Shown here: in pieces, positions 1,821 through 32,130 of the stretch | How the letters are laid out: every line of letters begins with the position of its first letter | Position numbering within the stretch: the stretch's first letter is position 1 | NCBI GenBank assembly: GCA_946221495.1 | Contig: CAMIFA010000005.1 | Location: 4,208 to 68,207 of the forward strand | Direction: 5' to 3' | DNA length: 64,000 nucleotides | From: an uncultured cyanobacterium | GTDB lineage: Bacteria; Cyanobacteriota; Cyanobacteriia; Cyanobacteriales; Chroococcidiopsidaceae | Notes under the pieces: generated by a model | Database searches by the model: none | What the model was told of the DNA's origin: nothing | The model's input: the letters and a program-made list of their open reading frames with translations, nothing else | Translations under genes and position numbers: made by a program

Positions 1821-3968
1821 TTATCCCTTGACACAAATAACTTGCTTGAGAGTTGCTACAACTTCAACTAAATCTGCTTGATTAGCCATGACTTGATCTA
1901 TTGGTTTATATGCGCCAGGAATTTCATCTAAAACTCCGCCATCTTTGCGGCATTCTACGCCTTTGGTTTGTTGAAGTAAATCATCTAAGGTGAACTTAAG
2001 CTTCGCCTTATTACGAGACATCAAACGCCCCGCACCATGCGAACAAGAGCAGTAACTTTCAGTATTGCCTTTACCCTTAACGATGAAAGATTTTGCTCCC
2101 ATCGAACCAGGAATAATGCCGTAGTCTTCAAGCCGCGCTCTTACTGCACCCTTACGAGTAACGTAGATATCTTCGCCAAAATGCGCTTCTTTTTCAGCAT
2201 AATTGTGATGACAGTTTACCTCTAATAAAGGCTTAGTCGGCTTACCACCAGCAAGATGCTTTTCAACTAGCCGCTTGAAACGAGCCATCATTACATCCCG
2301 ATTGAAACGCGCATAGTCTTGCGCCCACTGTAAGTCGTGCCAGTAGGCAGCAAACTGAGGCGTACCAGCTACAAAGTAAGCTAAGTCTGGATCTGGTAAA
2401 CGAATATCTGCCAGCTTTGCTAATTCTTTAGCAGTACCAATATGGCACTGAGCTAGCATATTCCCAATGTGACGTGAACCAGAGTGTAGCATCAGCCAAA
2501 CTTGATTCTCAGTATCAAGGCAAACTTCTAAAAAGTGGTTGCCCCCACCAAGTGATCCCATTTGGTTGATTGCCTTGCTTTCTAGGCGTTGTACTCCTGA
2601 ATGCAAGTCTTTAAAGTTACTCCATCTTTGCCAATTAGTAACAGCTTTTTCGACATTTTTGTTTTCATTGAATCCAGTCGGAATGGCGGCTTCAATGTCA
2701 AGACGAATCTGCTTTAGCTTACCTTCTAGTTGTTCGGCGATAAACGGGGTTTTTATGGCACTCATCCCACAGTTATGTACAAAAACACCTGCTTTTAAGG
2801 CAAAGTTATGATGCTCAGGCACAGTCAAACAATAAACATCCTCTTGATAGTCAAGAGCCACAACTTGCAATACTTTATGATTACATTTATGTTCATTTTT
2901 TTTGTGATTATGTAACCCTATGGGAGTTTTAATTTCAGCCCCACAAATATCACAGGTGTAGTATCTGTTAGCAATTTCTTTAGTTTTTGCTCTACCTTTT
3001 TCACTTTGGTTGTATGCAATTAAGTATTGTTTTCCTCGCTTACCATTATTTGCAACAGCTTGTTTAAAATGTTCAGGCTGTTCTTGCATATAGCGAAGAA
3101 TATTTTGAGTTCCACGCTCTGCGTAATATTTGTAGCCTTCTGGGGTTTGTGCTTTTTGGGCGATCGCATTTAATCGATGAAGCTCAAATTCCGGAGACTG
3201 AAAATACTGATTACGTTCTACCAGTGATTGGTGATAAGCTGAATGCTCTCTAGCACCCATAAACTCTAGGTTCTCAGGACGATTATCTGACTCTTCAAAG
3301 TTTTTGTGATGAATAACAGTTCTTTGATTCTTGAATGCGGGAACTTTGCCTAGTAAACCTGAGCGAGCTACAATCCAATGGGCTTTCTGCCATCTACTAG
3401 AGTAAGGCTGGACAATTAATGTGTAACCGTCTCTATCGACTTTGGAATAAAAGGGCATTAAAGAAGTCTCTGGTTGGAGATTTTGTGCTTCTTCATAAGT
3501 TCCATCTCTAAGTAGAAATTTGTGATCTGGAGTGCAGACAATCTCTTCACCATTGTCCAGAAATACCTTAACTAAATTTGCATTTTTTCTAGTTAATTTA
3601 GCTGTCGCTTTGGTTGCAACAATCTTGCTTGTAGCATTGCAAGCATAAACTATAAATTCTGCACTTTGATTAGCAAGTTCACTAATTTTGTAAAATTTTC
3701 CGTCTAGTAAGGGAACTAGAGTATCTCCTACAAAACAACCGACATCTACGCCGACAGCAGCTGGCATAATTGCTTCTTTCGTAGCAATTACAGAACCTAC
3801 CAAGGCTCCTTTACCCAAGTGAACATCTGGCATTAATGCTACGTGCTTAAACACAAATGGCAGAGAGGCAACATTTTTAGCCATCTTAGTTTCTTCGGAG
3901 CCAAGAGCATGATTCGCCCAAGAAAGCACCGGAGATAGTGCTGATATTTGTAGTTGTTCGTATGGCAT
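1821..3968 (-). CDS. rtcB: RNA-splicing ligase RtcB precursor containing an intein
   Basis: 715 aa. The exteins match E. coli RtcB nearly end to end (HVALMPDVHLGKGALVGSVIATKEAIMPAAVGVDVG ... CGMSAIK ... HSGSRHIGN ... SCSHGAGR ... VICVKG). The N-extein is 77 aa and the C-extein 316 aa, giving 393 aa like canonical RtcB. A 322-aa insertion separates them. Confidence 0.85.
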   Translation of the reverse strand: MPYEQLQISALSPVLSWANHALGSEETKMAKNVASLPFVFKHVALMPDVHLGKGALVGSVIATKEAIMPAAVGVDVGCFVGDTLVPLLDGKFYKISELANQSAEFIVYACNATSKIVATKATAKLTRKNANLVKVFLDNGEEIVCTPDHKFLLRDGTYEEAQNLQPETSLMPFYSKVDRDGYTLIVQPYSSRWQKAHWIVARSGLLGKVPAFKNQRTVIHHKNFEESDNRPENLEFMGAREHSAYHQSLVERNQYFQSPEFELHRLNAIAQKAQTPEGYKYYAERGTQNILRYMQEQPEHFKQAVANNGKRGKQYLIAYNQSEKGRAKTKEIANRYYTCDICGAEIKTPIGLHNHKKNEHKCNHKVLQVVALDYQEDVYCLTVPEHHNFALKAGVFVHNCGMSAIKTPFIAEQLEGKLKQIRLDIEAAIPTGFNENKNVEKAVTNWQRWSNFKDLHSGVQRLESKAINQMGSLGGGNHFLEVCLDTENQVWLMLHSGSRHIGNMLAQCHIGTAKELAKLADIRLPDPDLAYFVAGTPQFAAYWHDLQWAQDYARFNRDVMMARFKRLVEKHLAGGKPTKPLLEVNCHHNYAEKEAHFGEDIYVTRKGAVRARLEDYGIIPGSMGAKSFIVKGKGNTESYCSCSHGAGRLMSRNKAKLKFTLDDLLQQTKGVECRKDGGVLDEIPGAYKPIDQVMANQADLVEVVATLKQVICVKG
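2772..3737 (-). mobile_element. Intein inside rtcB, with an HNH-type homing endonuclease domain
   Basis: The intein begins CFVGDTLV (block A; Cys1 at nt 3737-3735) and ends VFVHN followed by +1 Cys (CGM). Internally TVIHHKNFEESDNRPENLEF...HSAYH is an HNH motif, and a Cys/His-rich segment CDICGAEIKTPIGLHNHKKNEHKCNHK follows. The insertion point is the conserved metal-ligand Cys of RtcB (GVD[V/I]G-CGM). Confidence 0.75.
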
Positions 3969-5828: not shown

Positions 5829-5901
5829 GGGGAATTAGCTCAGTTGGTAGAGCGCTGCGATCGCACCGCAGAGGTCAGGGGTTCGAGTCTCCTATTCTCC
5901 A
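5829..5901 (+). tRNA. tRNA-Ala (anticodon CGC)
   Basis: Cloverleaf folded by hand. Acceptor GGGGAAT/ATTCTCC with the G3:U70 Ala identity pair. D-arm GCTC/GAGC. Anticodon stem CTGCG/CGCAG with loop AUCGCAC, anticodon CGC. T-arm AGGGG-TTCGAGT-CTCCT. Discriminator A. CCA not encoded. Confidence 0.85.
5843..5901 (+). repeat. attL: 59-bp direct repeat forming the 3' part of tRNA-Ala (identical copy at 12782..12840)
   Basis: GTTGGTAGAGCGCTGCGATCGCACCGCAGAGGTCAGGGGTTCGAGTCTCCTATTCTCCA occurs twice, 100% identical. The first copy sits inside the full tRNA. The second lacks the tRNA 5' half. Confidence 0.8.
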
Positions 5902-6046
5902 TAGCCCTAACGGGCTTTTACACCTTAAACCACCCTTAGCTGTCCTAAGTCTGTCCTAAGCATATCAGACACGGATCTAAGTCAGCTAGAGGTGTTTGTT
6001 AGTTATTCAGCGATCGCCGTTAGAAACTTAAATGGCTAGGGCGCTT

Positions 6047-6718
6047 CTAGGTTGTAGCTTTCTTAACGAAGTCGATCCAAGCTTCTAAGGGGGTCAGCAG
6101 ATGCCTTGGGACTGCGTAGCATAACTCGTTGCTGCTAACCTTGCCTTTCTGTCTTTGCCATGTGTCTGGTTCAGGTGCTACGAAAGCTTCGGATGTCTCT
6201 TGGTTTATCAGGATCAGTGCATCAACCTTAAACTTCTTCTCGTCCCACTTAGGACAGCAGCCAACTTGAACCATGTGGAACAAAAATGCTGATGGTTGTA
6301 AGGCTTTAACTTCTACAGATAACCGCTTAAACTTCCCAACCTTAACCATAACGTCACGCTGATAGCCCCTATACAATGATGCATCGTGGGCTGGGTTGCC
6401 AGCTCTCACCCTATATGTTGGATGCGGCTTGAAGTCTGGTCTATAAGGCACTCTAGCAAATGTTTGTATGCCTGTGTATTGTAGGTCACAATGAAGGACA
6501 TCCAACCACCCATTATCTAAAGCTTCCTTCCACCATGCCCTATCGGTTCTAAGCTTGTGGGCTCTAACAAAGCTTTGGCGGGGTCTATAGGATGGCAAAC
6601 CGTTAGCTGTCAAGTTGTCTGCTAATATGTCCTCCCATGCTTCACCTAGTTCTCGGTGATAGCCATCTGGGTTGGCTGTCCTAAGTTGACAGGCTGGAAT
6701 AGTGTGCGTTAGCATCAT
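6047..6718 (-). CDS. Hypothetical protein (island cargo)
   Basis: 223-aa ORF downstream of the VapE-like gene on the same strand. No motif recognised by eye. Confidence 0.4.
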   Translation of the reverse strand: MMLTHTIPACQLRTANPDGYHRELGEAWEDILADNLTANGLPSYRPRQSFVRAHKLRTDRAWWKEALDNGWLDVLHCDLQYTGIQTFARVPYRPDFKPHPTYRVRAGNPAHDASLYRGYQRDVMVKVGKFKRLSVEVKALQPSAFLFHMVQVGCCPKWDEKKFKVDALILINQETSEAFVAPEPDTWQRQKGKVSSNELCYAVPRHLLTPLEAWIDFVKKATT

Positions 6719-6924
6719 GATAGAAATATCCTTTGGTTATCCATAAAGCTCAATAGTTTGGACGCTAGGAGCCTCATGGGTTTACGTTTAGTGTCTATTT
6801 GCTTCTTAGTTGGTTCCTAAGAAGCAGATAGGTTATGCCGTAGGGTTAGTTGTCGCTAACTTTTTGGCTATTTATTAGGTTTGTTAGCCACTAGGTCTTG
6901 TTTGGTCTAGTGGCTTTGGCTTTA

Positions 6925-8352
6925 TTAGCTGAACGTCCTTGGTTGCCTACGGTTAGGGTCTGGGTTGCGTAACCTAGCGGACGTTACAATATCAACCATA
7001 TCTAAGCAAAACGGCGTGGGGTCTTCAACGTCTGGCTTGACATAGTGCCAACCGTTAAGCTTCTTGTTCCCAAAGCTCCTTCTGATGTAGCCTAAACTTG
7101 TAAAGGCTGCTTTTAGCTCGCGTTCGTGACGTTTAAGGTTTCCAGGGGCAATATTAAGGAAATATCGGGCGGCATCACAAGCTTTGATAGCGATAGGTTG
7201 GTCTTCTATATCTAATATCTCTAAAGCTGTTCTTAATGGTTCCTCTAATGGGTTTTCTGTTTGATAGGTTTTGTTAGCTCTTTCACTTAGTTCCTCCTCC
7301 TCTGGAGTTAACCACCAGTTCTTTTTAGCTAAATAGAGGTGATAAGCTACAGCCCAGATGCGATCGCGGTTAGCCTTAACCCAGCTAACAGGGATAATAT
7401 GATCGCCTGCGTCTATAACCCAAAAGCGACGAGAGCCTGTATTGTCATTTAAGAAGGCTGTCTCGTTGGTAGTTCCTGCAAAGACACAATGCCTTGGTCT
7501 GGGTGCGCCTAACTCTTTGTTGAGGTCTCTGAAGCTGTCATGAGTTTCAGTCAGGAAAGCTTTTAACGCTGAAATATCTTTAGCTCTAAAAGTGGCTTCC
7601 AGTTCTCCAAGTTCAGCGCCCCAACAGTTTTGGATGTTTCTTTGTTGTTCTAGTTGGCTTTGGCTGCTGTGGAGGGTTCTGAAGTGTTCCCCAAATAAGG
7701 CAGCAAGCAAGCTAGTTTTTCCGATGCCTTGTTTGCCTCGGATGACTAATGCGGTGTCCATTTTGCAACCAGGTTCTATCGCTCTAGCTACAGCCCCGAT
7801 CAGCCACCTTGTTAGCTTAACTTGAACCAAATGTTCAGAAGTGCCAAATAGCTTGTCAGCTAATGTAAGCCATTCTGCCCAGTCATTAGGAGTTAGCTTT
7901 GGGAGTCCTTTAAGATAGTTTTCTATAGGGTGGAAGGTGCGATATTTGACCATAGCGTCTAGTCGACGGTCTAAGAAGCTATGATGTAAAGGCAATGCTG
8001 TATCTAAGATATCTTCAAGTCTGTTTAGCATAGTGCCTATGTTGGTCTTGTTTATCGGGCTTATGGAGCCTAAAAAGATATCACCAGACCAAGCGTTAAC
8101 ATGGATGCTGTCTTTATATACAGCCTCGAATATTCGCCAGATCGTCAAGGGGTTATATTTGGTCTGTATCAGCCAAGTTTTAGCGTCATAACGTGCTTGT
8201 TTGATGTCTCTAGCATCCCTGTTGTCGTAGCTAGAACTGCCTAGCTCTGTCTTGGCTGTTGAGATGAAGTCGAGTCCAAGTCTACGGATGTCAGCTTGAA
8301 CCTGATCAGGTTTAACCTTTTGGTCGTCGTCGTCGTAAATGGAATAAGACAT
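6925..8352 (-). CDS. VapE/VirE-family P-loop NTPase (phage/plasmid primase-helicase C-terminal-domain-like replication protein)
   Basis: 475 aa. Walker A GKQGIGKTS and the family-typical D-x-TG-x-RRFW motif (DNTGSRRFWVIDAG), with an arginine-rich tail. Confidence 0.65.
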   Translation of the reverse strand: MSYSIYDDDDQKVKPDQVQADIRRLGLDFISTAKTELGSSSYDNRDARDIKQARYDAKTWLIQTKYNPLTIWRIFEAVYKDSIHVNAWSGDIFLGSISPINKTNIGTMLNRLEDILDTALPLHHSFLDRRLDAMVKYRTFHPIENYLKGLPKLTPNDWAEWLTLADKLFGTSEHLVQVKLTRWLIGAVARAIEPGCKMDTALVIRGKQGIGKTSLLAALFGEHFRTLHSSQSQLEQQRNIQNCWGAELGELEATFRAKDISALKAFLTETHDSFRDLNKELGAPRPRHCVFAGTTNETAFLNDNTGSRRFWVIDAGDHIIPVSWVKANRDRIWAVAYHLYLAKKNWWLTPEEEELSERANKTYQTENPLEEPLRTALEILDIEDQPIAIKACDAARYFLNIAPGNLKRHERELKAAFTSLGYIRRSFGNKKLNGWHYVKPDVEDPTPFCLDMVDIVTSARLRNPDPNRRQPRTFS

Positions 8353-8424
8353 ATTATTTATAGAATAGGTTTACATTTGCGCCATCAGGGTTGTCTTAGG
8401 ACTCTGGTGGCTTTGTCTTTGGGT

Positions 8425-8595
8425 CTAGATAACGTCTTGGGGCTGCTTAGGAACTGTAAAATATTGCCTTAAGGCAACCCTGATCACAGCAGATACAGAG
8501 CGATCGCTTAGTTCTGCTTCTGTCTGCACTGCCTCCATTAGCTCTAGGGGCAATAACAGAGGAAACCGAGCTTGGTTACGATGCATAGTCGCCAT
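8425..8595 (-). CDS. Small ribbon-helix-helix (CopG/Arc-like) DNA-binding protein; not in the ORF track (<60 aa)
   Basis: 56-aa ORF immediately upstream of, and co-oriented with, the VapE-like gene. Translation MATMHRNQARFPLLLPLELMEAVQTEAELSDRSVSAVIRVALRQYFTV has the RHH pattern (beta strand R-F-x-L-x-L, then two helices ending ...AL..YF). Confidence 0.5.
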   Translation of the reverse strand: MATMHRNQARFPLLLPLELMEAVQTEAELSDRSVSAVIRVALRQYFTVPKQPQDVI

Positions 8596-9020
8596 TTGAT
8601 GATGTGTCCTTGATGTCTAGTTGGTGTTCATATCTAAGTTGTCCTAAAGTGTCCTAAAGTCAGGTCTTAAGCTGCTCTAAGACCCCAAAGTTAGATATAG
8701 CAAGCAATACAGCTATTTAAGGGTTCTAACGTGATATCAAAAGTGATATCAGATGTGGTATTACACTATTTGAATGTTTTATGTTTATAAATATAATGAT
8801 AAGTTTTTTCTATAATATATTTGGGTTAGGCTTATGAAACTGTTAGGTGTCTTTAATGGCAGTTAGAACCTCGTCAGCTATTGAGGAACTTTAAGACCGC
8901 CTAAGAAGCCTAAGAACCAAGGGAGTTAAAAAAACACCCCCCAAAATGGATAGAACCTTATGCTGGTAAGGTTTCTAGGGGGGGCTGGGAAACATCCGGC
9001 TGGTTTGTAAGGTTTAGGCT

Positions 9021-9325
9021 CTCTAACACCCCTCTCCAACGTCTAAAGCTTATGGGATAAGCATTACAGCCATTCCTCTCCAACACTCTCCAACGTCTAA
9101 AGGGATGTTGGAGAGCATCTAAAGCCTTATCCTGTAAGCATCCTAGCCATTCCTCTCCAACCTCTCCAACCTTTTTTAAGAAATAAAGAATAAAGAATAG
9201 CTATAGGAGCCAACCAACTAAAATATGTTGGAGAGGTTGGAGAGGATCGACACAAACCTTGCTACATAGGGGTTTGAGGTTGGAGAGGGGTGTTGGAGAG
9301 TGTTGGAGAGGTTAGAGAGGATCTA
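9021..9325. repeat. Iteron array: about 6 direct CTCTCCAAC and about 7 inverted GTTGGAGAG copies
   Basis: Direct copies at approximately 9032, 9076, 9086, 9153 and 9163. Inverted copies at approximately 9107, 9227, 9236, 9280, 9293, 9303 and 9312. Longer repeats CCTCTCCAACGTCTAAAG and CATCTAAAG are also present. An AT-rich tract lies at 8760-8830. The array sits in a 1.1-kb non-coding gap next to the replication-protein operon. Confidence 0.7.
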
Positions 9326-9454
9326 GCAATGCCCTAAGCCTGCCTCGACACTTACGGATATCCAAGGATACAATAGCAGATAATATAACACTGTTTTTTA
9401 AAATGCCTAAGTGTGTATTAGAAAACCCACGATAACCAACTATAGAGAAATATT

Positions 9455-9769
9455 ATGTTAGTTCAAATGGCGAAAGGCACTCTTTTAGTGACTAAGCTAG
9501 TCATAAACACTTGGACAGGTGAAGCGTTTGTCTTTGGTCTGCCAGAGCATATGCTGTGTCCTACAGGACAATACATGGACGCATCGGATGGTTCCTGTAA
9601 CACAGGTTTTTATAACAGGGTTGGCGAAGTTCGTATCCCCACTGAAGTTGACTTTGACGGCGATGGTGCGGCGGATACAGTCTTTCTATACGATCCTGAG
9701 AATGACACTTGGGTTGATATGGCTGAAAATGACCCGTGCAAAGGTTACGAGGATGACCCGACCTGCTGA
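9455..9769 (+). CDS. Hypothetical acidic Cys-containing small protein (island cargo)
   Basis: 104 aa with an acidic C-terminus DFDGDGAADTVFLYDPENDTWVDMAENDPCKGYEDDPTC. The overlapping alternative frame 9519..9794 is less protein-like. Confidence 0.3.
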   Translation: MLVQMAKGTLLVTKLVINTWTGEAFVFGLPEHMLCPTGQYMDASDGSCNTGFYNRVGEVRIPTEVDFDGDGAADTVFLYDPENDTWVDMAENDPCKGYEDDPTC

Positions 9770-9974
9770 TGGTCTTAGGAAGCCAAAGCCCTAACGATGC
9801 CAGACTTAGACCCCCCTGTTGATGCCATATAAGCAGACAGGGGTTTTTACATATTCACTTGTAGGCAACACAAGGGGGCTTGGATGCCTGAAGATGGACA
9901 AGCGATGTATGCTGAGTTATCATTAAGACACTTGATCAGGAGAACGATCATACAAGCCAACGGGACTATCACTA

Positions 9975-10127
9975 ATGGCAACTAAATATCAACTAAGGTT
10001 GACTGAAGACCAACACCAAGCATTTACAGAAACCGCTAAAAGTCTAGGTTTATCTCTGGCTGACTTTCTAAGACTTGCAGCGATCGAGAAGGTTGAACAG
10101 GTGCGGAAGGATCGCAAGTCTGCATAA
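9975..10127 (+). CDS. Small RHH/CopG-like protein (50 aa; not in the ORF track)
   Basis: MATKYQLRLTEDQHQAFTETAKSLGLSLADFLRLAAIEKVEQVRKDRKSA: an L-R-L-T beta strand followed by two helices, the classic ribbon-helix-helix layout. ATG at 9975, stop TAA at 10125-10127. Confidence 0.45.
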   Translation: MATKYQLRLTEDQHQAFTETAKSLGLSLADFLRLAAIEKVEQVRKDRKSA

Positions 10128-10297
10128 TAGCTCCCTAGAATAGCTGATAAGTTATTGTTATAGCTGCATGGAGCTACATAAACCATCTGTATGTATCCTG
10201 CTATTTAAAGAGATGGACAAACAATGGATACGGAGTTATAATAGAAACATCAAAAGGCAAATAACTCTACACAACGCCTCCAAAAAGACTTAAGACC

Positions 10298-10864
10298 ATG
10301 AACTACAAAGACTATCAGAACGCCCTAAAGAACCTACGTAATGACGGCTACGATGTCCAAGTCAAACTCAACAGCAAGCTAGAGGTTCTTAAGGTTGAAT
10401 ATGATCGCCTGATGACCGTCCCAGAGCATTTACAGCAACTAGAACCTCTGACGGCTGATGAGTTTAACGAGATGGTTTACGGCATATCACCTGTAGAAGC
10501 TATAGCAACCCCTTCCGAGACTTCCAAGAGTCTAGAACCCTTACAGGCTATAGCAGAAACCAATATCGCCTTAAAACCTGTAGAAGTCCTAGAACCCTTA
10601 CAGGCAAATGATGAAACGTATTTCGCCAAGTCAACCAAGGACTATTGGATAGACAGGACTGGGGTATCAAGTCAGCTAGAGATAACGCAAGTCCAAGCGT
10701 TTAGGAACCTCCAAGATGGGTGGCGATCCCTCAAGCAACTAGGCAGAAACCTACAAAGCTTTAAGAAGGGTTTTGATGATCGTCTGAAGCAACTAGAGGC
10801 ATCTAAGAAGCCCAAAACTAATAATGTCGTCCAGATGCCTTTAAGGATGCCCCAAGCTGCTTAA
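10298..10864 (+). CDS. Hypothetical protein (island cargo)
   Basis: 188 aa with an internal near-repeat SLEPLQAIAETNIALKPVEVLEPLQANDE. No recognised domain. Confidence 0.4.
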   Translation: MNYKDYQNALKNLRNDGYDVQVKLNSKLEVLKVEYDRLMTVPEHLQQLEPLTADEFNEMVYGISPVEAIATPSETSKSLEPLQAIAETNIALKPVEVLEPLQANDETYFAKSTKDYWIDRTGVSSQLEITQVQAFRNLQDGWRSLKQLGRNLQSFKKGFDDRLKQLEASKKPKTNNVVQMPLRMPQAA

Positions 10865-11014
10865 GGAGTTTCGATAGCCCCCCTTGGCTATCTGAGAGAA
10901 CCTGTCAGACGGGTTGTAAACCACCAATGCTCTAAAGAACACGGATAGACCTGAGAACGTCTCTAAACTTCTCAATGTCCCAACTAAGTCCCTAAAAAAA
11001 TAAAGCTAGAAACT

Positions 11015-11275
11015 ATGTTTATTGATATTCCTGAAGGCTTGCGTATAGCTCTGTATGTAACGCTTATCAATGAGGATGTTCTAAATGGAACTTACAGCGA
11101 CCTCAGATCCGCTCTAAAAGCTAAAAACTGGTTCCTGTATGAATATCGGCAAATGGTGAGAGACGCTAGACGGGCTGGATATGCGGTGGAGTCTTTAGAC
11201 ACTCAAGGTGATCTGAGAGCCAGACGGACAAGACTTGAAACTCTATATCAGGGGGTCTTAGCAAAAAACTGTTAA
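11015..11275 (+). CDS. Hypothetical small protein (island cargo)
   Basis: 86-aa ORF in the co-oriented block preceding the integrase. Confidence 0.35.
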   Translation: MFIDIPEGLRIALYVTLINEDVLNGTYSDLRSALKAKNWFLYEYRQMVRDARRAGYAVESLDTQGDLRARRTRLETLYQGVLAKNC

Positions 11276-11366
11276 GCACAAAATATGGATAGGACATCTT
11301 AAGGGCATCAAGAACCCATGTCAACAGACCCGACGTTAAACATTCTTTAGAAACCATCAATACAAA

Positions 11367-11564
11367 ATGTCTCAAAGTCTTGCAGATAAACAAAAGAATA
11401 GCCCCCTGCAACAACTGAAGCGGTCTAGGGCAAATGCTAGAAGACATAAGGTTATTCTGAGGTTTCTAGAGAAAGTCAGAGATAACCCCGATATGTCCCC
11501 AGAACAAAAACGAGAAGTTGCCATCAAAGTTAGGGAACTTCTCGAACAACTAGAGACGGCGTAG
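11367..11564 (+). CDS. Hypothetical small basic protein (possible excisionase/regulator)
   Basis: 65 aa, basic and helical (KRSRANARRHKVILRFLEKVRDN). It sits just upstream of the convergent integrase. Confidence 0.3.
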   Translation: MSQSLADKQKNSPLQQLKRSRANARRHKVILRFLEKVRDNPDMSPEQKREVAIKVRELLEQLETA

Positions 11565-11625
11565 AGATATAGAAGAACTCATTATCAAACTACAGCCCCC
11601 TCAGAATGACTAAGGGGGCTTTGGC

Positions 11626-12714
11626 TTACACAGGCATCTTAGGCAAACTAGGACGGTTAACTATATGTCCGTAGGTTTGGATAACCATCCTAGTGTTCTT
11701 ATGACCTGCTAGATAGGCTACACCAGTTAGAGAAGTGCCTTGCTCTACAGCATAACTTAGTGTCGTATGCCGGATAGCGTGTAGCTTTCTATAAGGGATG
11801 TCACAAGCTGCTAAAACTTTAACCCAGTGCCTCTCACGGAAGTTATCAGCGTCAATAACACAACCCTTAACCGTAGTGAAGACTAGGCACTCAGGTTTAA
11901 CCTCTGAGGGTCTAAGGGTTAACAACAAGCTTCTAAGTTCTGGACTAAGTGTTAAATGCCTGACACTGCCTGTTTTAGTTTCTTTCCGTATCCTTTGATA
12001 GCCGTTGCCTGTAACATCTTTGGATAAGGACTCGCTTATCGTCAACTCATTACGCTTAAAGTCTATACGGTTCCACCTAAGCCCTATGGCTTCAGATATT
12101 CTAACTCCAGTCAGAAATAAGAACCTAACAAACGGGACATAATGAGGCGCTTGATCTTCAAAACCTTTGACTATCAAAGCCGTCTCGCTTATGCTAAATG
12201 GCTTAACCTCCTTAAAGGGCTTCTTACGAGACTTAAGGCTTTCAAATGAGTTGACCAAGCCTTGTTTAGCAGCCCATTTGCCAAAAGACTTAAGATAACT
12301 TAGGCGATCATTGTAGGTTACAGCAGCGAGAGGAGCTTGAGTAAACCATGTTGTATCTGTAAGGCTTGGGTTAGCCTTGAGGATCATTCGCCTAACCCAT
12401 TCGTAGTGATCTGCCTTAGTTGCTGCTGAGAGGTCTAAGGTGTTAACCCAAAGATCCCAAAGCTCTAACAAGTTATTAGGCTTAGTTAACTCAGGCGTTG
12501 TCTTAGGTGCTAGTCGATATTTCTGTAGTGTCGGATCAAGACACCCCGCTAGGATGTCGTTCTGTATTTTAACCGCGATCGCTTTAGCTGTCTGTAGGTC
12601 TCTTTTGTTGCTGTAGTCACCACCTGGAATAGGGTTAAAGCTGTATCGTTTGCTTCCGTAACTAAACTTAAGTTGTATAGATCCGTTGTTGTTAAAAGGC
12701 TTTATTTCTCTCAT
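11626..12714 (-). CDS. int: Tyrosine-type site-specific integrase/recombinase
   Basis: 362 aa. Catalytic signature R (LTGVRISEA) ... K ... H-x-x-R (HAIRHT) ... H (AGHKN) ... Y (IQTYGH). The start codon is 68 bp from attR. Confidence 0.85.
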   Translation of the reverse strand: MREIKPFNNNGSIQLKFSYGSKRYSFNPIPGGDYSNKRDLQTAKAIAVKIQNDILAGCLDPTLQKYRLAPKTTPELTKPNNLLELWDLWVNTLDLSAATKADHYEWVRRMILKANPSLTDTTWFTQAPLAAVTYNDRLSYLKSFGKWAAKQGLVNSFESLKSRKKPFKEVKPFSISETALIVKGFEDQAPHYVPFVRFLFLTGVRISEAIGLRWNRIDFKRNELTISESLSKDVTGNGYQRIRKETKTGSVRHLTLSPELRSLLLTLRPSEVKPECLVFTTVKGCVIDADNFRERHWVKVLAACDIPYRKLHAIRHTTLSYAVEQGTSLTGVAYLAGHKNTRMVIQTYGHIVNRPSLPKMPV

Positions 12715-12781
12715 CAGTCCTAGACCTGTCCTAAAGAAATATCCTTAGAACAGCTAGATGGCTCTACATTAGTTCTTTGAG

Positions 12782-12840
12782 GTTGGTAGAGCGCTGCGAT
12801 CGCACCGCAGAGGTCAGGGGTTCGAGTCTCCTATTCTCCA
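12782..12840 (+). repeat. attR: partial tRNA-Ala 3' copy, second copy of the 59-bp direct repeat
   Basis: Identical to 5843..5901. It lies 68 bp from the integrase start codon. No 5' acceptor/D-stem precedes it, so it is not a functional tRNA. Confidence 0.8.
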
Positions 12841-12987
12841 TTCGATAGAACCCTGTGATTAAGAGGGTTTTGTCATCGTATAGAGCAAATTTCAGCGTCC
12901 CATTCTTAATAAGTAACTTCAGACTAGAGGAGATTTCTGTAAATAGTTTATTACGTACCGGAGCAAGCTTCCCTTTTGTTATTCAAT

Positions 12988-20379: not shown

Positions 20380-20392
20380 TTATCTCGATTCC

Positions 20393-20490
20393 CCTTGTCT
20401 CCTTGTCTCCTTGTCTCCTAGTCCCCTAGTCCCCTAGTCCCCTAGTCTCCTAGTCCCCTAGTCCCCTAGTCCCCGTCTCCTCAACAACCT
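20393..20490. repeat. Octamer tandem repeat array (CCTTGTCT x3, CCTAGTCC/CCTAGTCT x about 8), STRR-like
   Basis: Read directly from sequence: ccttgtct ccttgtct ccttgtct cctagtcc cctagtcc cctagtcc cctagtct cctagtcc cctagtcc cctagtcc ccgtctcc, in the mreC-mreD intergenic region. Confidence 0.8.
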
Positions 20491-23105: not shown

Positions 23106-25527
23106 GGTGCGACCCGTTGAGTGAGAAACCAGTCTCCCTTGAGATTGGGTACCACTCGCAAGGATAAGTAGGAATACCTACCGAACCTTGAGAACTTAGC
23201 TCCTGAGAGGGTGAGAATTTGAAGGAATGTTAAGCAAACTTGGTTTCTTAACGCAATCTTTAGATTTCAATTCCCTCCTCTTAGATGCAAGGAGATGCAA
23301 CACCCCCGTCAGTAGGACTGACTATCAATCTGGCGAAGCGGGGTGTAACGGAGGTAACTCTAAACCTGATAGAGAATCCCTCCAAGCAGAGATGGGTATG
23401 GGTAAGGATATCTAAACCTGCGTCTGAACCGTCGTCACTGACAACAGCCTACACAGGTTATTGGCTGAGCCAAAAGGCAAGGATACGGGCTAGGCAACTC
23501 GAAGTTTGACCTAGAGCATCCCCAAAGAAACCCGGCGGATAGTAGGACTCTAACCCCAATCGCAATGCAGGAGCTAGGAACGGGATAACCTCTTAATTTC
23601 TCTCGGCAAGGTCGATAACCGAGCAGGCAGTCAGCCGTATGGAATTAAGAGGAGGGATTGGCTCAGAAGCCAATGCCTTTGGGAAAGCCAAAGGATATGC
23701 TGACAGAGCCACGATAACTCAGAGATGGGTAATTCAGTAGAAGTCAAAAAGTCATGGACACGGAAAATCAACCGATGTATGAATGGAAGACAATCAACTG
23801 GGCGAAAGCTCAGCGTGAGGTCTTCAAGCTTCAAAAGAGAATCTATCGAGCCTCTGAACGTGGTGATAGAAAAGCAGTTCGCAGGCTACAAAGGCTGTTG
23901 ACTCAATCAAGGTCTGCCAAGTTGGTAGCAGTCCGAAGAGTGACCCAGGATAATCAAGGCAAAAATACGCCCGGTGTGGATAAGGTAGCCAGACTACGAA
24001 ACCCACAGAAGGTAAAAATAGCCGAGAAACTGAAGCTCAACGACAAGTCTCAACCGACCAGAAGGGTATGGATTCCTAAACCTGGCAAGGACGAGAAAAG
24101 ACCACTTGGTATTCCAACGATGGAAGATAGAGCGAAGCAAGCTTTATTGAAACTGGCATTAGAACCAGAATGGGAGGCTAAATTTGAGCCAAACAGCTAT
24201 GGTTTCAGACCAGGGCGGTCTTGTCACGACGCAATCGCGGCTATATATAACGGAATCGTCCAGAAACCGAAATATGTACTGGACGCGGACATTGAGAAGT
24301 GTTTTGACCGGATCAACCACGAAAAGCTGCTGGATAAGCTACAAACATTCCCAACATTCAGAAGACAGATCAGAGCGTGGCTTAAATCTGGAGTTATGGA
24401 TGGAAAAAAACTATTCCCGACCGATGAAGGAAGCCCACAAGGGGGGGTAATTTCTCCTCTGCTGGCGAATATAGCCCTTCATGGAATGGAAGAAATGCTA
24501 ATGGGTCGCTACTCCAGACGGGTCGAAAATGGTAGAAAGCGAAAGGTAACTTTCGTGAGATCCGCTGACGACTTCGTTCTGATGGACGAAAGCCTAGAGG
24601 TAGTGTTGGAAGCTAAACAGCTAATTGAAGAGTGGTTGATGGAAATGGGGCTAGCCCTGAAAGAATCAAAAACCCGGATTACTCACACATTTGTTGAGCA
24701 TGAAGGAAAAATAGGATTCGATTTTCTGGGGTTCCATATCCGACAATACCCATGCAGTGATAAACAAAGTGGGTCAGTCGGTGGAACCGAAAGCAAGAGA
24801 GGGCATAAGACGTTCATCAAACCCAGTAAAGAGGCTATCAAACGGCATCTAGACAAATTAGATGACCTACTAGAGAGGAATGGCAAGTCAAAACAGGAGC
24901 AAGTTATTAACGCCCTTAATCCAGTTATCCGAGGATGGGCAGCATACTACTCTACAGTGGCGAGCAGCCAGACCTTCGATCTCATCGATAGCATCATGCA
25001 CCAAAAACTCTACGCATGGGCTAAGAAGAGAAGAAGCCACAGAGGTAACAATACCGATCTCGTATCAAATTATTGGGGAGTCAACAGAGGGTTAGGCTGG
25101 CGATTTATGACTCCAGATGATCAGTATGTACTGGAGAAACACCAGGAAACTAAGATAAAGCGACACATAAAAGTGAAGGAAAGCAAAAGTCCTTTCGACG
25201 GTGAATTTATCTACTGGAGCAATCGCTTAAACAATCACCCAATGCTTCGACGCACTGTTACCAGACTACTGAAGAAGCAGGAAGGTAAATGCGGAGAATG
25301 CAGCCTGATATTAACCAGCACCGATCTCTTGGAAGTACATCACAAGGATAGAAACCGAGGGAATAACAAGCTTGACAACTTAATGCTGGTTCATAGACAC
25401 TGCCATGACATCATCCACGCAGGAGGTACTGTCACTAGCTGAGTTATTGAGGAGCCGTGTGCGGTGAAAGCTGCAAGCACGGTTCTGAAACAGAGGTAAG
25501 CAGGGTGACTTGCTTATCGACTGTAAC
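23106..25527 (+). mobile_element. Group II intron (about 2.42 kb) inserted in ssb
   Basis: 5' end GTGCGAC. Domain V GAGCCGTGTGCGGTGAAAGCTGCAAGCACGGTTC at 25452..25485. Domain VI helix with a bulged A at 25520 (8 nt from the 3' end). 3' end ...TAAC (AY). The IEP ORF lies in domain IV. Confidence 0.8.
23754..25442 (+). CDS. Group II intron-encoded protein: reverse transcriptase / maturase (X) / DNA-binding / HNH endonuclease
   Basis: 562 aa. RT blocks include the catalytic motif SADD (YADD variant) in VRSADDFVLM. A maturase X domain follows (RGWAAYY). The C-terminal HNH is CGECSLILTSTDLLEVHHKDRNRGNNKLDNLMLVHRHCHDIIH. Confidence 0.9.
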   Translation: MDTENQPMYEWKTINWAKAQREVFKLQKRIYRASERGDRKAVRRLQRLLTQSRSAKLVAVRRVTQDNQGKNTPGVDKVARLRNPQKVKIAEKLKLNDKSQPTRRVWIPKPGKDEKRPLGIPTMEDRAKQALLKLALEPEWEAKFEPNSYGFRPGRSCHDAIAAIYNGIVQKPKYVLDADIEKCFDRINHEKLLDKLQTFPTFRRQIRAWLKSGVMDGKKLFPTDEGSPQGGVISPLLANIALHGMEEMLMGRYSRRVENGRKRKVTFVRSADDFVLMDESLEVVLEAKQLIEEWLMEMGLALKESKTRITHTFVEHEGKIGFDFLGFHIRQYPCSDKQSGSVGGTESKRGHKTFIKPSKEAIKRHLDKLDDLLERNGKSKQEQVINALNPVIRGWAAYYSTVASSQTFDLIDSIMHQKLYAWAKKRRSHRGNNTDLVSNYWGVNRGLGWRFMTPDDQYVLEKHQETKIKRHIKVKESKSPFDGEFIYWSNRLNNHPMLRRTVTRLLKKQEGKCGECSLILTSTDLLEVHHKDRNRGNNKLDNLMLVHRHCHDIIHAGGTVTS

Positions 25528-25889: not shown

Positions 25890-26151
25890 CTGAGTAGGAT
25901 TAATTATTTTTCTGCTTTCCATAAATGAATATAGCAGAAGTCAAAAGTCAACGCGCTGTGTCCAAGGCATCCCGCCTTTAAAAGGCGGGATTGCCACAGC
26001 GCGCTATCTAATTCTGGCGAAGCCGCCACAGCTTTTGGAGGTTTCCTCCAAGAGAATGGCGGAGGAACCGGACTAAATCCGCGCGTCAAAAGCATGATGC
26101 TTACCCCACAACAGTTTAAGCTATTTGTGAGCGTCCTAACCTTTATGGCAG

Positions 26152-31252: not shown

Positions 31253-32130
31253 GTGAAAACTGACAGTATTTTCTATCGCCTGTTTCAAGAATTTCCTGAT
31301 ATCTTTTTTGAACTAATTGGCAATTTCCCATTAGCAACTAATACTTATCAGTTCTCATCTGTCGAGATCAAGCAAACAGCTTTCCGCATTGATGGTGTGT
31401 TTTTACCTCAACAAAGTAATGACAATCCTATTTACTTTGTTGAGGTGAACGGTACTCCGCCTTACGAAGGCGGAGCCTGCGTTCACCGCCTTCCGCGGTT
31501 CAATTTCAACCAGATACAGAATTTTACTCTCGGTTCTTTGCCGAAATATTTTTATACCTGCGTCAGAATAAACCCCAAAATAACTGGTGTGCGGTAGTTA
31601 TATATTCAAGTCAAAGTGTAGATGTAGGAGATATAAAACATTACCAGGAGTTCTTCACAAGCCAGCGAGTGATTTCAGTTTATCTAAATGAATTAAGCGC
31701 AGCAACTGAGCAATCAATTGGCATAGGAACGCTGAGATTGGTAATTCTCCCAGAATCAACAGTAGTTGAACAAGCAAAGGGTTTAATAGACAGAGTAAGG
31801 CAAGAAATAGCCAACGAACTACAACAGCGTGAGTTATTACAATTAATAGAGACAATCTTGTTTTATAAATTGCCAAATGCAAGTCGGGAGGAGATAGAAG
31901 CAATGTTTGGATTGAGCGATCTAAAACAAACAAGAGTTTATCAAGAAGCCAAGCAAGAAGGTAAGCAAGAAGGTAAGCAGGAAGGTAAGCAGGAAGGTAA
32001 GCTAGAGGCTAAATTAGAATCAGTACCTCGGTTACTGGCATTAAATTTGACTGTAGAACAAGTAGCAGCAGCTTTAGGTTTGAGTATAGAAGAAGTTAGA
32101 CAAGCCGCACAAAGTCAGCCTTTAGAGTAA
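31253..32130 (+). pseudogene. Rpn-family (PD-(D/E)XK nuclease / putative transposase, DUF4351 C-terminus) gene disrupted by a 53-bp insertion
   Basis: Two ORFs (31253..31597 in frame 2; 31450..32130 in frame 1) together span one protein: MKTDSIFYRLFQEFPDIFFELIG...IYFVEV | QFQPDTEFYSRFFAEIFLYLRQNKPQNNWCAVVIY...KQEGKQEGKQEG. Deleting nt 31448..31500 restores YFVEV-QFQPD in one frame. Confidence 0.65.
31448..31500. repeat. 53-bp hairpin-containing insertion (MITE-like small palindromic element) causing a frameshift
   Basis: aacggtaCTCCGCCTTacgAAGGCGGAGcctgcgttcaccgccttccgcggtt contains a perfect 9-bp inverted repeat. 53 bp is not a multiple of 3. Confidence 0.5.

What the first reader, a model, noticed from the sequence alone, without database searches (positions are those of the whole stretch)
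31253..32130. Rpn/DUF4351 recombination-promoting nuclease gene inactivated by a 53-bp hairpin insertion
Two adjacent ORFs in different frames reconstitute one Rpn-family protein (MKTDSIFYRLFQEFPDIFFELIG...FVEV / QFQPDTEFYSRFFAEIFLYL...(KQEG)n) if nt 31448-31500 are removed. The inserted 53 bp contain a perfect CTCCGCCTT/AAGGCGGAG hairpin. Similar CCGCCTT...AAGGCGG hairpins occur at about 25988-26008. The insert may be a member of a small palindromic mobile-repeat family.
Basis: seen in the sequence. Interest (0 to 1): 0.55.

Follow-up and report, generated by a model that had tools for sequence, protein, structure and literature searches.

The report
Mobile 55-nt hairpin splits Rpn nuclease gene
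A cyanobacterial toxin-nuclease (Rpn) gene has been knocked out by a tiny 55-base hairpin-forming mobile repeat that also occurs, almost letter for letter, in distantly related cyanobacteria; this is an ordinary kind of event, caused by a repeat family I could not find described.

Summary
Window 31253-32130 is one DUF2887/TIGR01784 Rpn-family gene split by 53 extra nucleotides. Removing them restores a protein that matches PF11103 end to end (E 8.6e-84). Two syntenic orthologues (UbiB - rpn - ABC-F) have an empty site.

The insert belongs to a repeat family with a 55-nt conserved unit (31445-31499): GTGAACGGTACTCCGCCTT-loop-AAGGCGGAGCCTGCGTTCACCGCCTTCCGCGGT. I found 21 further unique copies, 96-100% identical outside the loop. 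They lie in Pleurocapsales genomes (Myxosarcina, at least 10 copies; Pleurocapsa; Waterburya; Chondrocystis) and in metagenomes. All of them are intergenic.

The unit has no terminal inverted repeats and no target duplication beyond a shared GT. It folds into a bulged hairpin plus a small 3' hairpin.

The insert sits inside the catalytic E-V|Q motif, so the nuclease (toxin) is dead. A conserved internal Shine-Dalgarno/ATG (31887/31903) and the KQEG four-residue repeats suggest an intact RpnS-type antitoxin ORF.

The hairpin near 25972 is not a family member. Pfam DUF4351 is not hit. The mobilising enzyme is unknown; a hairpin-recognising recombinase acting in trans is inferred.

Verdict: a new member of a known kind, of moderate-low interest.

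The parts
31253..31447 (+). 5' segment of the rpn (DUF2887) gene, codons 1-65. It holds the conserved D4, D47 and E64 and ends at V65 of the E-V-Q motif.
   Evidence: The N-terminal ORF matches PF11103 positions 1-65.
31253..31597 (+). Truncated ORF actually encoded in the window: 114 aa, made of 65 native residues plus 49 out-of-frame residues, then a stop.
   Evidence: It is called as a gene in the ENA assembly and is on record as protein P0242.
31445..31499 (+). 55-nt conserved unit of the dispersed hairpin repeat. The net insertion is 53 nt (for example 31447-31499 or 31448-31500) because GT is shared with the target. Outer stem: 31445-31451 with 31480-31486. Inner stem: 31455-31463 with 31467-31475. 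Loop: 31464-31466. Small 3' hairpin: 31485-31499.
   Evidence: copies and boundaries. Covariance model hit of 86.1 bits, E 5e-16. Folding.
31501..32130 (+). 3' segment of the rpn gene, codons 66-274 plus the stop. It is now out of frame with the start codon, and it begins with Q66 of the E-x-Q motif.
   Evidence: In one search the ORF from 31669 matches PF11103 positions 123-200.
31887..31894 (+). GGGAGGAG Shine-Dalgarno-like sequence, 8 nt upstream of an internal ATG. It is encoded by the conserved S-R-E-E codons.
   Evidence: Read directly. Identical in the window, L001 and L002. S193, R194, E196 and M200 are invariant in 13 homologues. That it works as a ribosome-binding site is inferred.
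31903..32130 (+). Predicted intragenic small ORF (75 aa, MFGLSDLKQTRVYQEA(KQEG)4...). It is the candidate RpnS-type antitoxin and is untouched by the insertion.
   Evidence: Inferred together with PMC10400941. That paper reports that RpnS starts at an internal start codon and that the four-residue repeats begin 8-20 residues after it; here they begin 16 residues after M200.
31951..31998 (+). Four tandem 12-nt units (AAGCARGAAGGT) encoding (KQEG)4. The two orthologues have two units.
   Evidence: family D2; a 24-nt length difference.

Best explanation
Shown:
- The locus is a single Rpn-family (DUF2887/TIGR01784, PD-(D/E)XK-type) gene.
- In this lineage it acquired one copy of a 55-nt dispersed hairpin repeat between codons V65 and Q66. 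That is inside the conserved E-V-Q motif, which corresponds by pattern to the RpnA catalytic residues E82 and Q84.
- The net gain is 53 nt, which shifts the frame and truncates the nuclease to 114 aa.
- The repeat is a non-coding, non-autonomous element. It has no terminal inverted repeats and no target-site duplication other than a GT present at both junctions.
- Nearly identical copies occur in cyanobacteria of another order. Those copies are intergenic and often abut the 3' ends of genes.

Inferred:
- The insertion is recent. The rest of the gene has no other lesion, and its synonymous/non-synonymous substitution counts are like those of the intact orthologues.
- The element is moved in trans by an enzyme that recognises the folded hairpin and joins at a GT. 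My best guess is an HUH/Y1 (IS200/IS605- or RAYT-like) single-strand transposase, at about 0.35. Next is a serine- or DEDD-type recombinase that crosses over at a shared GT dinucleotide, at about 0.2.
- The gene is an RpnL/RpnS gene-within-gene toxin-antitoxin. The insertion kills the toxin and leaves the internal RpnS-like ORF (31903-32130) intact.
- Deletion between the two GGT triplets that flank the hairpin would restore the gene exactly.
For: - Reconstitution and family match.
- Contiguous YFVEVQFQ in 13 homologues, with D47, E64 and Q66 invariant.
- Syntenic orthologues with an empty site (GTTGA-AA-TTCAA).
- The insert is present in two further assemblies, and the Logan contig breaks inside it.
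- 21 further unique copies, of which 19 are exactly 55 nt and 2 carry extra DNA in the loop.
- None of the other copies lies within a credible ORF (the one ORF of at least 80 aa that spans a copy, L023:58-381, 107 aa, is judged spurious), and several touch the stop codons of hemE, fabI and panD.
- Flank statistics: A at position -1 in 16/22, A at +2 in 19/22, and no flank-flank direct repeat.
- Stable two-hairpin fold, z about -5.
- One compensatory C:G to T:A change in the inner stem.
- No transposase family recurs among 97 flanking ORFs.
- Branch substitution counts (synonymous/non-synonymous): window 12/8, orthologues 18/6 and 10/10.
- Conserved internal SD/ATG and the 4-versus-2 KQEG repeat difference.
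- RpnL/RpnS biology: PMC10400941. RpnA catalytic residues D63, E82 and Q84: PMC5350276.
Against: - No mobilising enzyme or full-length parent element was found.
- Only one copy exists in the 64-kb window. The copy number in the source genome is unknown.
- The exact 21-mer was absent from every Nostocales or Chroococcidiopsidales species representative.
- Covariation support is a single base pair and is not significant on its own (42 of 500 shuffles).
- The IS608-type guide/target pairing rule is not obviously satisfied by the 4 nt 5' of the hairpin (my reading of the sequence).
- The ENA, Logan and NCBI assemblies may derive from the same reads, so they are not independent sequencing.
- RpnS expression is not shown. 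The C-terminal region has no detectable match to PF14261. The family-profile search (alignment A1) of solved structures matched only a designed helix-turn-helix repeat in the C-terminal region and no nuclease-domain relative.
- PADLOC has no hit.
Confidence: 0.8

Rival explanations
1. The element is a classical miniature inverted-repeat element moved by a DDE transposase. It duplicates a fixed GT target dinucleotide, as IS630/Tc1 elements duplicate TA.
For: GT is present at both ends of 20 of 22 unique copies. The net gain of 53 nt equals 51 nt plus a duplicated GT.
Against: The ends are not inverted repeats. GAACGGTAC... against the reverse complement of the other end, CGCGGAAGG..., shows no match (read directly). 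At 55 nt the unit is well below the sizes of about 67 bp upwards, mostly 100-435 bp, tabulated for bacterial MITEs (PMC3184786). No DDE transposase recurs near the copies.
Confidence: 0.1
2. The element spreads through an RNA intermediate, as was proposed for the 21-27-nt SDR elements of Nostocaceae. It would be reverse-transcribed and inserted, for example by a group II intron reverse transcriptase.
For: Behaviour resembles SDRs: a very small hairpin unit, nested insertion of other small hairpins into it (L018, L003/L023), and a compensatory stem change. A group II intron reverse transcriptase gene lies in the window at 23754-25442. The SDR properties are from my memory of Elhai et al. 2008; the paper is not held.
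Against: Nothing links the reverse transcriptase to the element. The sharp 55-nt boundaries and the shared GT look like DNA-level site-specific joining. Copies occur in both orientations relative to neighbouring genes.
Confidence: 0.1
3. The repeat is primarily a functional RNA or DNA structure, such as a REP-like 3'-end mRNA stabiliser or a protein-binding site. It would be kept by selection and copied by recombination. On this view the copy in rpn is an accident.
For: All 20 other loci are intergenic, and several copies lie exactly at stop codons. Sequence conservation across orders is extreme.
Against: A precise gain of one unit inside a coding sequence, with clean empty sites in the orthologues, is an insertion event and not a conserved regulatory site. 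No Rfam family matches the one related copy tested (the composite L003; the window itself was not scanned against Rfam). No T-tract follows the hairpin. A function in transcripts would not exclude mobility.
Confidence: 0.08
4. The gene is still expressed. Ribosomes would bypass the 53-nt gap from take-off codon GTG (31445-31447) to landing codon GTT (31498-31500), as in T4 gene 60 or the yeast mitochondrial byp elements. Alternatively, the element is a reversible on/off switch for a toxic nuclease.
For: Val codons are matched at both edges of a hairpin-containing gap of about 50 nt (read directly). The remainder of the gene is undecayed. GGT triplets flank the hairpin and could mediate precise deletion.
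Against: No stop or rare codon follows the take-off codon; AAC follows, and frame 0 stays open for 49 more codons. The GT ends belong to every copy of the family, and nearly all of those are intergenic. No intact allele of this exact protein is on record.
Confidence: 0.03
5. It is an assembly or sequencing artefact.
For: The source is a metagenome assembly. The three assemblies may share reads.
Against: The same junctions appear in MEGAHIT-type and Logan assemblies. The insert is a perfect full-length member of a family found in unrelated samples. A 53-nt structured insertion is not a typical sequencing error.
Confidence: 0.02

Closest known systems
REP/REPIN elements mobilised by RAYT (Y1/HUH) transposases (Bertels & Rainey 2011, PMC3116915; Di Nocera et al. 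2013, PMC3733652)
   Same: Short GC-rich imperfect palindromes. Almost always extragenic and often at the 3' ends of genes. No inverted terminal repeats and no target duplication. Non-coding and dispersed in multiple copies. Some occur in cyanobacteria.
   Different: No GTAG or CGTC tag; the unpaired bases 5' of the inner stem are GGTA. Copies are singletons rather than inverted doublets. There is a conserved 13-nt 3' tail that forms a second small hairpin. No flanked RAYT gene was seen. Nearly identical copies occur across different orders.
Small dispersed repeats SDR1-8 of Nostocaceae (Elhai et al. 2008, Genome Res 18:1484; cited in PMC5861425 and PMC3733652; details are from my memory because the paper is not held)
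   Same: Very small cyanobacterial hairpin repeats with evidence of recent mobility. There is a compensatory stem change. Small hairpin elements insert into one another. No transposase is known.
   Different: SDRs are 21-27 nt and are reported only in heterocyst-forming cyanobacteria. This unit is 55 nt and was found in Pleurocapsales and in an Aliterella-like lineage. I could not compare the sequence with the SDR consensus sequences.
Cyanobacterial MITEs (Nezha, MaeMITE, the Anabaena MITEs that inactivate mcy genes; reviewed in PMC3184786)
   Same: Non-autonomous elements recognised through filled versus empty orthologous sites. They can inactivate genes by insertion.
   Different: MITEs are about 100-435 bp, with terminal inverted repeats and direct-repeat duplications that match a parent insertion sequence. 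None of these features is present here.
IS200/IS605-derived palindrome-associated elements (HUH single-strand transposition)
   Same: Asymmetric ends and conserved hairpins. No inverted repeats and no duplication. A short preferred sequence lies next to the left end.
   Different: A much shorter unit, with one large and one small hairpin rather than two like hairpins. The guide/target pairing rule is not evident. No TnpA gene was identified.
RpnL/RpnS gene-within-gene toxin-antitoxin antiphage systems (Zhong et al. 2023, PMC10400941; Kingston et al. 2017, PMC5350276). This comparison concerns the interrupted gene.
   Same: TIGR01784 Rpn family membership and a D...E-x-Q motif. The C-terminal helical/HTH-like tail carries four-residue repeats whose number differs between close relatives. 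A conserved internal Met lies 16 residues before the repeats.
   Different: This is the cyanobacterial DUF2887 branch, not PF04754. There is no PF14261 or PADLOC hit. Nuclease activity, toxicity and RpnS translation are untested here.

Membership tests
Rpn family (TIGR01784) / Pfam DUF2887 | Full-length profile match above the curated cut-off | tested here: met
   PF11103 positions 1-200 of 200, 281 bits against a cut-off of 24.1. TIGR01784 positions 1-272 of 273, 175.8 bits against 52.1. Both matches need the 53 nt to be removed first.
Rpn family (TIGR01784) / Pfam DUF2887 | PD-(D/E)XK-type catalytic residues (RpnA D63, E82, Q84; an E-x-Q motif) | tested here: met
   D47, E64 and Q66 are invariant in 13 homologues. 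The correspondence to the RpnA residues is by pattern and spacing (PMC5350276), not by a direct alignment or a structure.
RpnL/RpnS toxin-antitoxin | Variable number of four-residue repeats in the shared C-terminal helix, beginning 8-20 residues after the internal start | tested here: met
   (KQEG)4 in the window against (KQEG)2 in the orthologues. The repeats begin 16 residues after the invariant M200. The criterion comes from PMC10400941.
RpnL/RpnS toxin-antitoxin | The small protein is translated from an internal start and neutralises the toxic long form | not testable with these tools
   Only a conserved GGGAGGAG-N8-ATG is seen. No promoter was called.
   No PF14261 hit at E<=5. Only weak HTH-type hits were returned.
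MITE (derived from a DDE insertion sequence) | Terminal inverted repeats | tested here: not met
   The two ends of the 55-nt consensus are not reverse complements of each other (read directly).
MITE (derived from a DDE insertion sequence) | Target-site duplication flanking each copy | tested here: not met
   Flank-to-flank repeats of 2-5 nt occur in 0-2 of 22 copies. Only the constant GT at both ends could be a duplication.
REP/REPIN-RAYT | GTAG or CGTC tag next to the palindrome | tested here: not met
   The unpaired bases 5' of the inner stem are GGTA, followed by a paired C. The criterion comes from PMC3733652.
REP/REPIN-RAYT | Extragenic location | tested here: met
   20 of 21 unique loci are intergenic. 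Only the window copy lies inside a gene.
REP/REPIN-RAYT | A RAYT gene flanked by the repeats, and inverted doublets | tested here: inconclusive
   No Y1 transposase appears among the recurrent families of 97 flanking ORFs. The ORF between the two L024 copies has no Pfam hit. Whole genomes could not be searched.
SDR elements (Elhai 2008) | Unit of 21-27 nt, confined to heterocyst-forming cyanobacteria | tested here: not met
   The unit is 55 nt. The named hosts are Pleurocapsales. For the window organism the best named relative is Aliterella. The criterion is from memory and from PMC5861425.
SDR elements (Elhai 2008) | Sequence identity to the SDR1-8 consensus sequences | not testable with these tools
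   The paper is not held. The element's 13-mers were not found in the paper library.
IS200/IS605-type single-strand elements | No inverted repeats, no duplication, subterminal hairpins, and a fixed short target 5' of the left end | tested here: inconclusive
   The first two features are met. The hairpins are one large and one small. The left flank is only biased, towards A-A then GT. No TnpA was identified.
Integron attC site | AAC...GTT in the outer stem, with cassette boundaries at G|TT inside the 3' arm | tested here: not met
   AAC (31448-31450) and GTT (31481-31483) are present. However, the family boundaries lie at the 5' foot of the stem and 13 nt beyond its 3' foot, not inside it.

The most novel reading that the evidence does not exclude
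The 55-nt unit would represent an undescribed class of ultra-small mobile DNA. It would be smaller than any MITE, with no inverted repeats and no duplication, and would be joined at a shared GT. It would have spread horizontally between cyanobacterial orders nearly unchanged, moved by an enzyme that is not linked to it. In this locus it would act as a reversible switch on a toxic antiphage nuclease: precise loss between the flanking GGT triplets would re-arm the toxin while the antitoxin ORF stays on.
Probability: 0.1. Interest if true: 0.65.

Novelty: new member of a known kind. Interest (0 to 1): 0.35.

Why it matters
The case gives a clean filled-versus-empty site for one of the smallest bacterial mobile repeats. 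It defines the element's exact boundaries and its shared GT junction. It also shows that the same 55-mer is present in at least two cyanobacterial orders. Together these are a concrete handle for finding the enzyme that moves such hairpin repeats, which is still an open question for SDR-like and untagged REP-like elements.

For Rpn biology, this is a natural allele in which the nuclease (toxin) is destroyed inside its catalytic motif while the presumed intragenic antitoxin and its variable four-residue repeats remain. It also extends the RpnL/RpnS architecture, by inference, to the large cyanobacterial DUF2887 branch.

In practical terms, annotators will call this locus as two spurious genes.

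Tried and rejected
- A first pattern with a 4-nt loop found nothing because the loop is 3 nt.
- BLAST of the insert against PLSDB plasmids gave only one cyanobacterial hit, the composite copy in Chondrocystis plasmid3. That hit revealed the true arms of the element.
- An 18-mer scan of viral contigs gave only chance hits in high-GC DNA.
- Rfam gave no match on the related copy.
- The covariance model R1 found no diverged copies in the window or in 29 loci.
- The hairpin at 25951-26002 is not a family member and has no plasmid match.
- I looked for empty sites for the other copies among the held loci and found none.
- I looked for a recurrent transposase among 97 flanking ORFs and found none.
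- I searched 5.8 billion proteins with the peptides that the element would encode, to find other interrupted genes. Only this window's ORF and one 66-aa ORF on the L012 contig came back.
- An exact look-up of the reconstituted protein, to detect an intact allele, found it is not on record.
- The Elhai 2008 SDR paper could not be read.
- A literature search for 13-mers of the element returned only unrelated primer sequences.
- PADLOC returned no hit.
- No solved structure is related to the nuclease domain.
- Models considered and rejected from the sequence itself: an integron attC site (boundaries wrong), an IS110/bridge-RNA-type element (targets too variable), a BHB-type RNA intron (wrong bulge geometry), and translational bypass (no stop after the take-off codon).
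Full report
**Observation.** A 114-aa ORF (31253-31597) and a 153-aa ORF (31669-32130) lie in different frames. Removing 31448-31500 (53 nt) yields a 274-codon ORF. This ORF matches Pfam DUF2887 (PF11103) over positions 1-200 of 200 (E 8.6e-84) and NCBIfam TIGR01784, the Rpn family of recombination-promoting nucleases (175.8 bits against a cut-off of 52.1). The two separate ORFs match profile positions 1-65 and 123-200 respectively. PF14261 (DUF4351) is not hit even at E<=5. The perfect hairpin is CTCCGCCTT (31455-31463), loop ACG, AAGGCGGAG (31467-31475). The region folds much better than shuffled sequence (z -4.5 to -5.0).

**It is an insertion and not a natural segment.** A search of 5.8 billion proteins gave 4838 homologues at E<=1e-20. 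Thirteen aligned homologues, including two at 93% and 91% identity in that alignment (90% and 88% by BLASTP), are contiguous across the junction (…YFVEV|QFQPD…), with D47, E64 and Q66 invariant. The two closest homologues come from contigs with the same gene order as the window: UbiB/ABC1 kinase, rpn, ABC-F. Their UbiB genes are 95.4% identical in DNA to the window's. At the DNA level they read GTTGA-AA-TTCAA where the window reads GTTGA-G[GTGAACGG…CCGCGG]TTCAA. The same junctions are present in an ENA assembly (L034). They are also present in a Logan assembly of SRR1950782 (L035), whose contig ends inside the insert, as expected at a repeated k-mer. These assemblies may share reads, so they argue against an assembler artefact but are not independent sequencing.

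**The insert is a member of a dispersed repeat family.** A plasmid BLAST hit in Chondrocystis sp. NIES-4102 showed the same two arms separated by 77 nt of other DNA. An exact 21-mer from the right arm then recovered copies in one metagenome scan and one scan of GTDB species representatives. After removing duplicate contigs there are 21 unique loci besides the window:
- 19 are exactly 55 nt. The consensus is GTGAACGGTACTCCGCCTT-(3-nt loop)-AAGGCGGAGCCTGCGTTCACCGCCTTCCGCGGT. They vary almost only in the loop.
- Two are composites, with another small hairpin element or 77 nt of other DNA replacing or interrupting the loop (L018 and L003/L023).

Named hosts are all Pleurocapsales: a Myxosarcina MAG with at least 10 copies, plus Pleurocapsa, Waterburya and Chondrocystis. 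The four metagenome (L008, L011, L014) and genome (L027) hits in DNA of 53-65% G+C, one of them Chitinophaga, lack the left arm and are chance matches.

The window organism is an uncultured cyanobacterium. Its UbiB is closest to that of Aliterella atlantica (86%), followed by Chlorogloeopsis, Fischerella and Scytonema (about 82%). The same 55-mer therefore occurs in at least two orders, while no Nostocales or Chroococcidiopsidales species representative carries the exact 21-mer. This pattern suggests recent horizontal spread or very strong constraint on the sequence.

A covariance model built from ten copies finds the window copy at 86.1 bits and nothing else convincing in the window. It finds no extra diverged copies in 29 loci, including the two orthologous contigs.

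**Anatomy.**
- The family-conserved unit occupies 31445-31499 (55 nt), but the net gain is 53 nt. Two nucleotides are therefore shared with the target.
- The unit starts with GT in all 22 unique copies and ends with GT in 21 of them (L007 ends GGA). The family consensus codons at this site are GAG GTN CAA (E-V-Q).
- The simplest reading is insertion at a GT. The GT was either duplicated (51 + 2 nt), or it marks a crossover or cleavage point without duplication.
- The ends are not inverted repeats. There is no flank-to-flank duplication: 0-2 of 22 copies for k = 2-5.
- The flanks are biased. A occurs at position -2 in 15/22 copies, at -1 in 16/22 and at +2 in 19/22; C occurs at +1 in 10/22.
- As a single strand the unit folds into a bulged hairpin: a 7-bp outer stem, a GTA/CCTG internal loop and a 9-bp inner stem. 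A 5-bp 3'-terminal hairpin follows. The free energy is -17.7 kcal/mol, with z about -5 on either strand.
- One inner-stem pair switches from C:G to T:A in five unique copies (L003/L023, L021, L026, L028, L032). Because the copies are so alike, this is the only covariation, and it is not significant by itself.

**Context of the other copies.**
- None of the other 20 loci has the element inside a credible ORF. The only spanning ORF of at least 80 aa is a 107-aa one that runs through the composite copy in L023, which I judge spurious.
- Several copies sit exactly at the 3' ends of genes: 1 nt after the hemE stop (L020), supplying the TGA stop of fabI (L033), and overlapping the ends of panD (L029) and of another ORF (L022).
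- Both orientations occur.
- Among 97 ORFs within about 3.5 kb of the copies, no transposase family recurs. The ORF between the two L024 copies has no Pfam hit.
- The element is therefore non-autonomous and normally survives only outside genes. The window copy is the exception.

**Consequence for the gene.** Kingston et al. showed that RpnA needs D63, E82 and Q84, an E-x-Q variant of the PD-(D/E)XK motif (PMC5350276). By pattern, E64-V65-Q66 is the equivalent motif here, and the insert lies between V65 and Q66. Translation continues through the element and stops at 31595-31597, giving a 114-aa product without Q66 or anything downstream. The nuclease is therefore inactivated.

The rest of the gene has no other lesion. 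Lineage-specific synonymous/non-synonymous changes are 12/8 for the window, against 18/6 and 10/10 for the intact orthologues. I infer that the insertion is recent.

**A second layer: the gene looks like an RpnL/RpnS toxin-antitoxin.** Zhong et al. showed the following (PMC10400941):
- rpn genes encode a toxic long nuclease and, from an internal start, a small C-terminal antitoxin.
- The shared helix carries four-residue repeats whose number varies between strains.
- The repeats begin 8-20 residues after the internal Met.
- Stand-alone RpnS genes are annotated DUF4351 in some species.

The same architecture is visible here:
- M200 and the preceding S-R-E-E are invariant in 13 homologues.
- Their codons form GGGAGGAG 8 nt upstream of ATG 31903, and this stretch is identical in the window and both orthologues.
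- The KQEG repeats begin 16 residues after M200.
- The window has four 12-nt units where the orthologues have two.

I therefore infer a 75-aa RpnS-like ORF (31903-32130) that the insertion leaves intact. On this reading the toxin is lost and the antitoxin kept. This is inference only: no promoter was called, there is no PF14261 or PADLOC hit, and no solved structure is related to the nuclease domain.

**How the element probably moves.** What is shown is a precise gain of one unit at a GT, with no inverted repeats, no variable duplication, conserved hairpins, no linked gene and A-rich preferred flanks.
- This excludes a conventional DDE-type MITE.
- It fits enzymes that recognise folded or specific ends and join at a fixed short sequence. 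HUH/Y1 single-strand transposases (IS200/IS605 TnpA, RAYT) are my preferred guess, at about 0.35, because the conserved feature is a hairpin. Serine (IS607-like) or DEDD (IS110-like) recombinases that cross over at a shared dinucleotide come next, at about 0.2. The weakly conserved targets argue against a bridge-RNA-type specificity.
- An RNA-mediated route, as proposed for SDRs, cannot be excluded (about 0.1).
- The GGT triplets at 31444-31446 and 31497-31499 flank the hairpin. Slippage between them would restore GAGGTTCAA exactly. This is a mechanistic inference and has not been observed; no intact allele of this protein is on record.

**Comparison with known families.** The element behaves like REP/REPIN and SDR elements and, functionally, like the MITEs that inactivate cyanobacterial genes. 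It fails defining tests for each:
- It has no GTAG or CGTC tag and forms no doublets, so it is not a tagged REP/REPIN (PMC3733652).
- It is twice the SDR size and lies outside the SDR host range (PMC5861425; my memory of Elhai 2008).
- It has no inverted repeats or duplication and is well below typical MITE size (PMC3184786).
- An attC-like reading fails because the family boundaries are not at the G|TT inside the stem, even though AAC…GTT is present in the outer stem.

Thirteen-mers of the element were not found in the searchable literature. I could not compare the unit with ISfinder or with the SDR consensus sequences. I classify it as a new member of a known kind, namely small non-autonomous hairpin repeats.

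A CCGCCTT…AAGGCGG hairpin exists at 25972-25988. It is the inner stem of a 52-nt nested hairpin at 25951-26002, downstream of ssb. It shares only the inner stem with the family (18.5 bits, model positions 7-36). It has no other copy in any held sequence or in PLSDB. Whether it belongs to a sister family is open.

**Verdict.** The event itself, a small mobile repeat knocking out an accessory gene, is ordinary. The modest interest lies in the exceptionally small, sharply bounded repeat shared across orders, whose mobilising enzyme is unknown, and in the natural toxin-dead, antitoxin-intact Rpn allele.

Noticed in passing
window 5829-12841: tRNA-Ala(CGC) lies at 5829-5901. A perfect 60-nt copy of its 3' part occurs at 12782-12841. 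Together they bracket a 6.9-kb island carrying a tyrosine integrase (11626-12714, minus strand), a VapE-like primase/helicase gene (6925-8352, minus strand) and small RHH-type genes. This looks like an integrated mobile element with att repeats.
   Followed up: partly
window 1821-3968 (minus strand): A 715-aa RtcB RNA ligase gene is interrupted by an intein; the precomputed Pfam order is RtcB - Intein_splicing - RtcB.
   Followed up: no
window 23754-25442: A group II intron reverse transcriptase/maturase ORF (RVT_N, RVT_1, GIIM) lies just upstream of ssb. The intron RNA boundaries were not mapped.
   Followed up: no
window 25951-26090: A very stable nested hairpin (CGCGCTGTG…TCCCGCCTTTAAAAGGCGGGA…CACAGCGCG; -25.5 kcal/mol, z -7.7) is followed by further palindromic sequence downstream of ssb. 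It has the same two-tier architecture and inner-stem sequence as the 55-nt element but is otherwise unrelated. No other copy was found in the held data or in plasmids.
   Followed up: partly
window 20382-20485: A tandem array of about 13 octamers (TCTCCTTG / TCCCCTAG), the kind of short tandem repeat typical of filamentous cyanobacteria (family D1).
   Followed up: no
window 31951-31998 compared with L001 and L002: The 12-nt unit encoding KQEG is present four times in the window and twice in both orthologues. This matches the strain-level four-residue repeat variation reported for RpnS/RpnL (PMC10400941).
   Followed up: yes
L018 5831-5928; L003 207-334 (identical to L023 139-266): Other small elements are nested inside copies of the 55-nt unit. 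In L018 a 43-nt hairpin (GAGAGATTTCGGGGCGGAA…TTCCGTCCCGAAACTCTCTC) is inserted in the inner stem. In Chondrocystis and Myxosarcina a 77-nt segment replaces the loop.
   Followed up: partly
L033 786-840; L022 4833-4887; L020 4720-4774; L029 5487-5541: Copies of the element sit exactly at gene ends. In fabI (L033) and in an unnamed ORF (L022) the element's own TGA provides the stop codon (TGA at unit positions 2-4 or 19-21). The window copy has loop ACG instead of GAA, which removes the frame-1 TGA and lets translation run through the element.
   Followed up: partly
protein P0003 (358 aa, homologue list): This homologue carries an extra N-terminal 86 residues. They consist of the first approximately 53 residues of another Rpn paralogue followed by unrelated sequence, fused in frame to a complete Rpn protein. 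It may be a tandem duplication or truncation of rpn genes, or another small insertion.
   Followed up: no
L035 (Logan SRR1950782 contig), end at 5377: The Logan contig stops inside the element at …CCTTCCGC. This is consistent with a graph branch at a repeated k-mer and hints that the source sample holds further copies.
   Followed up: no
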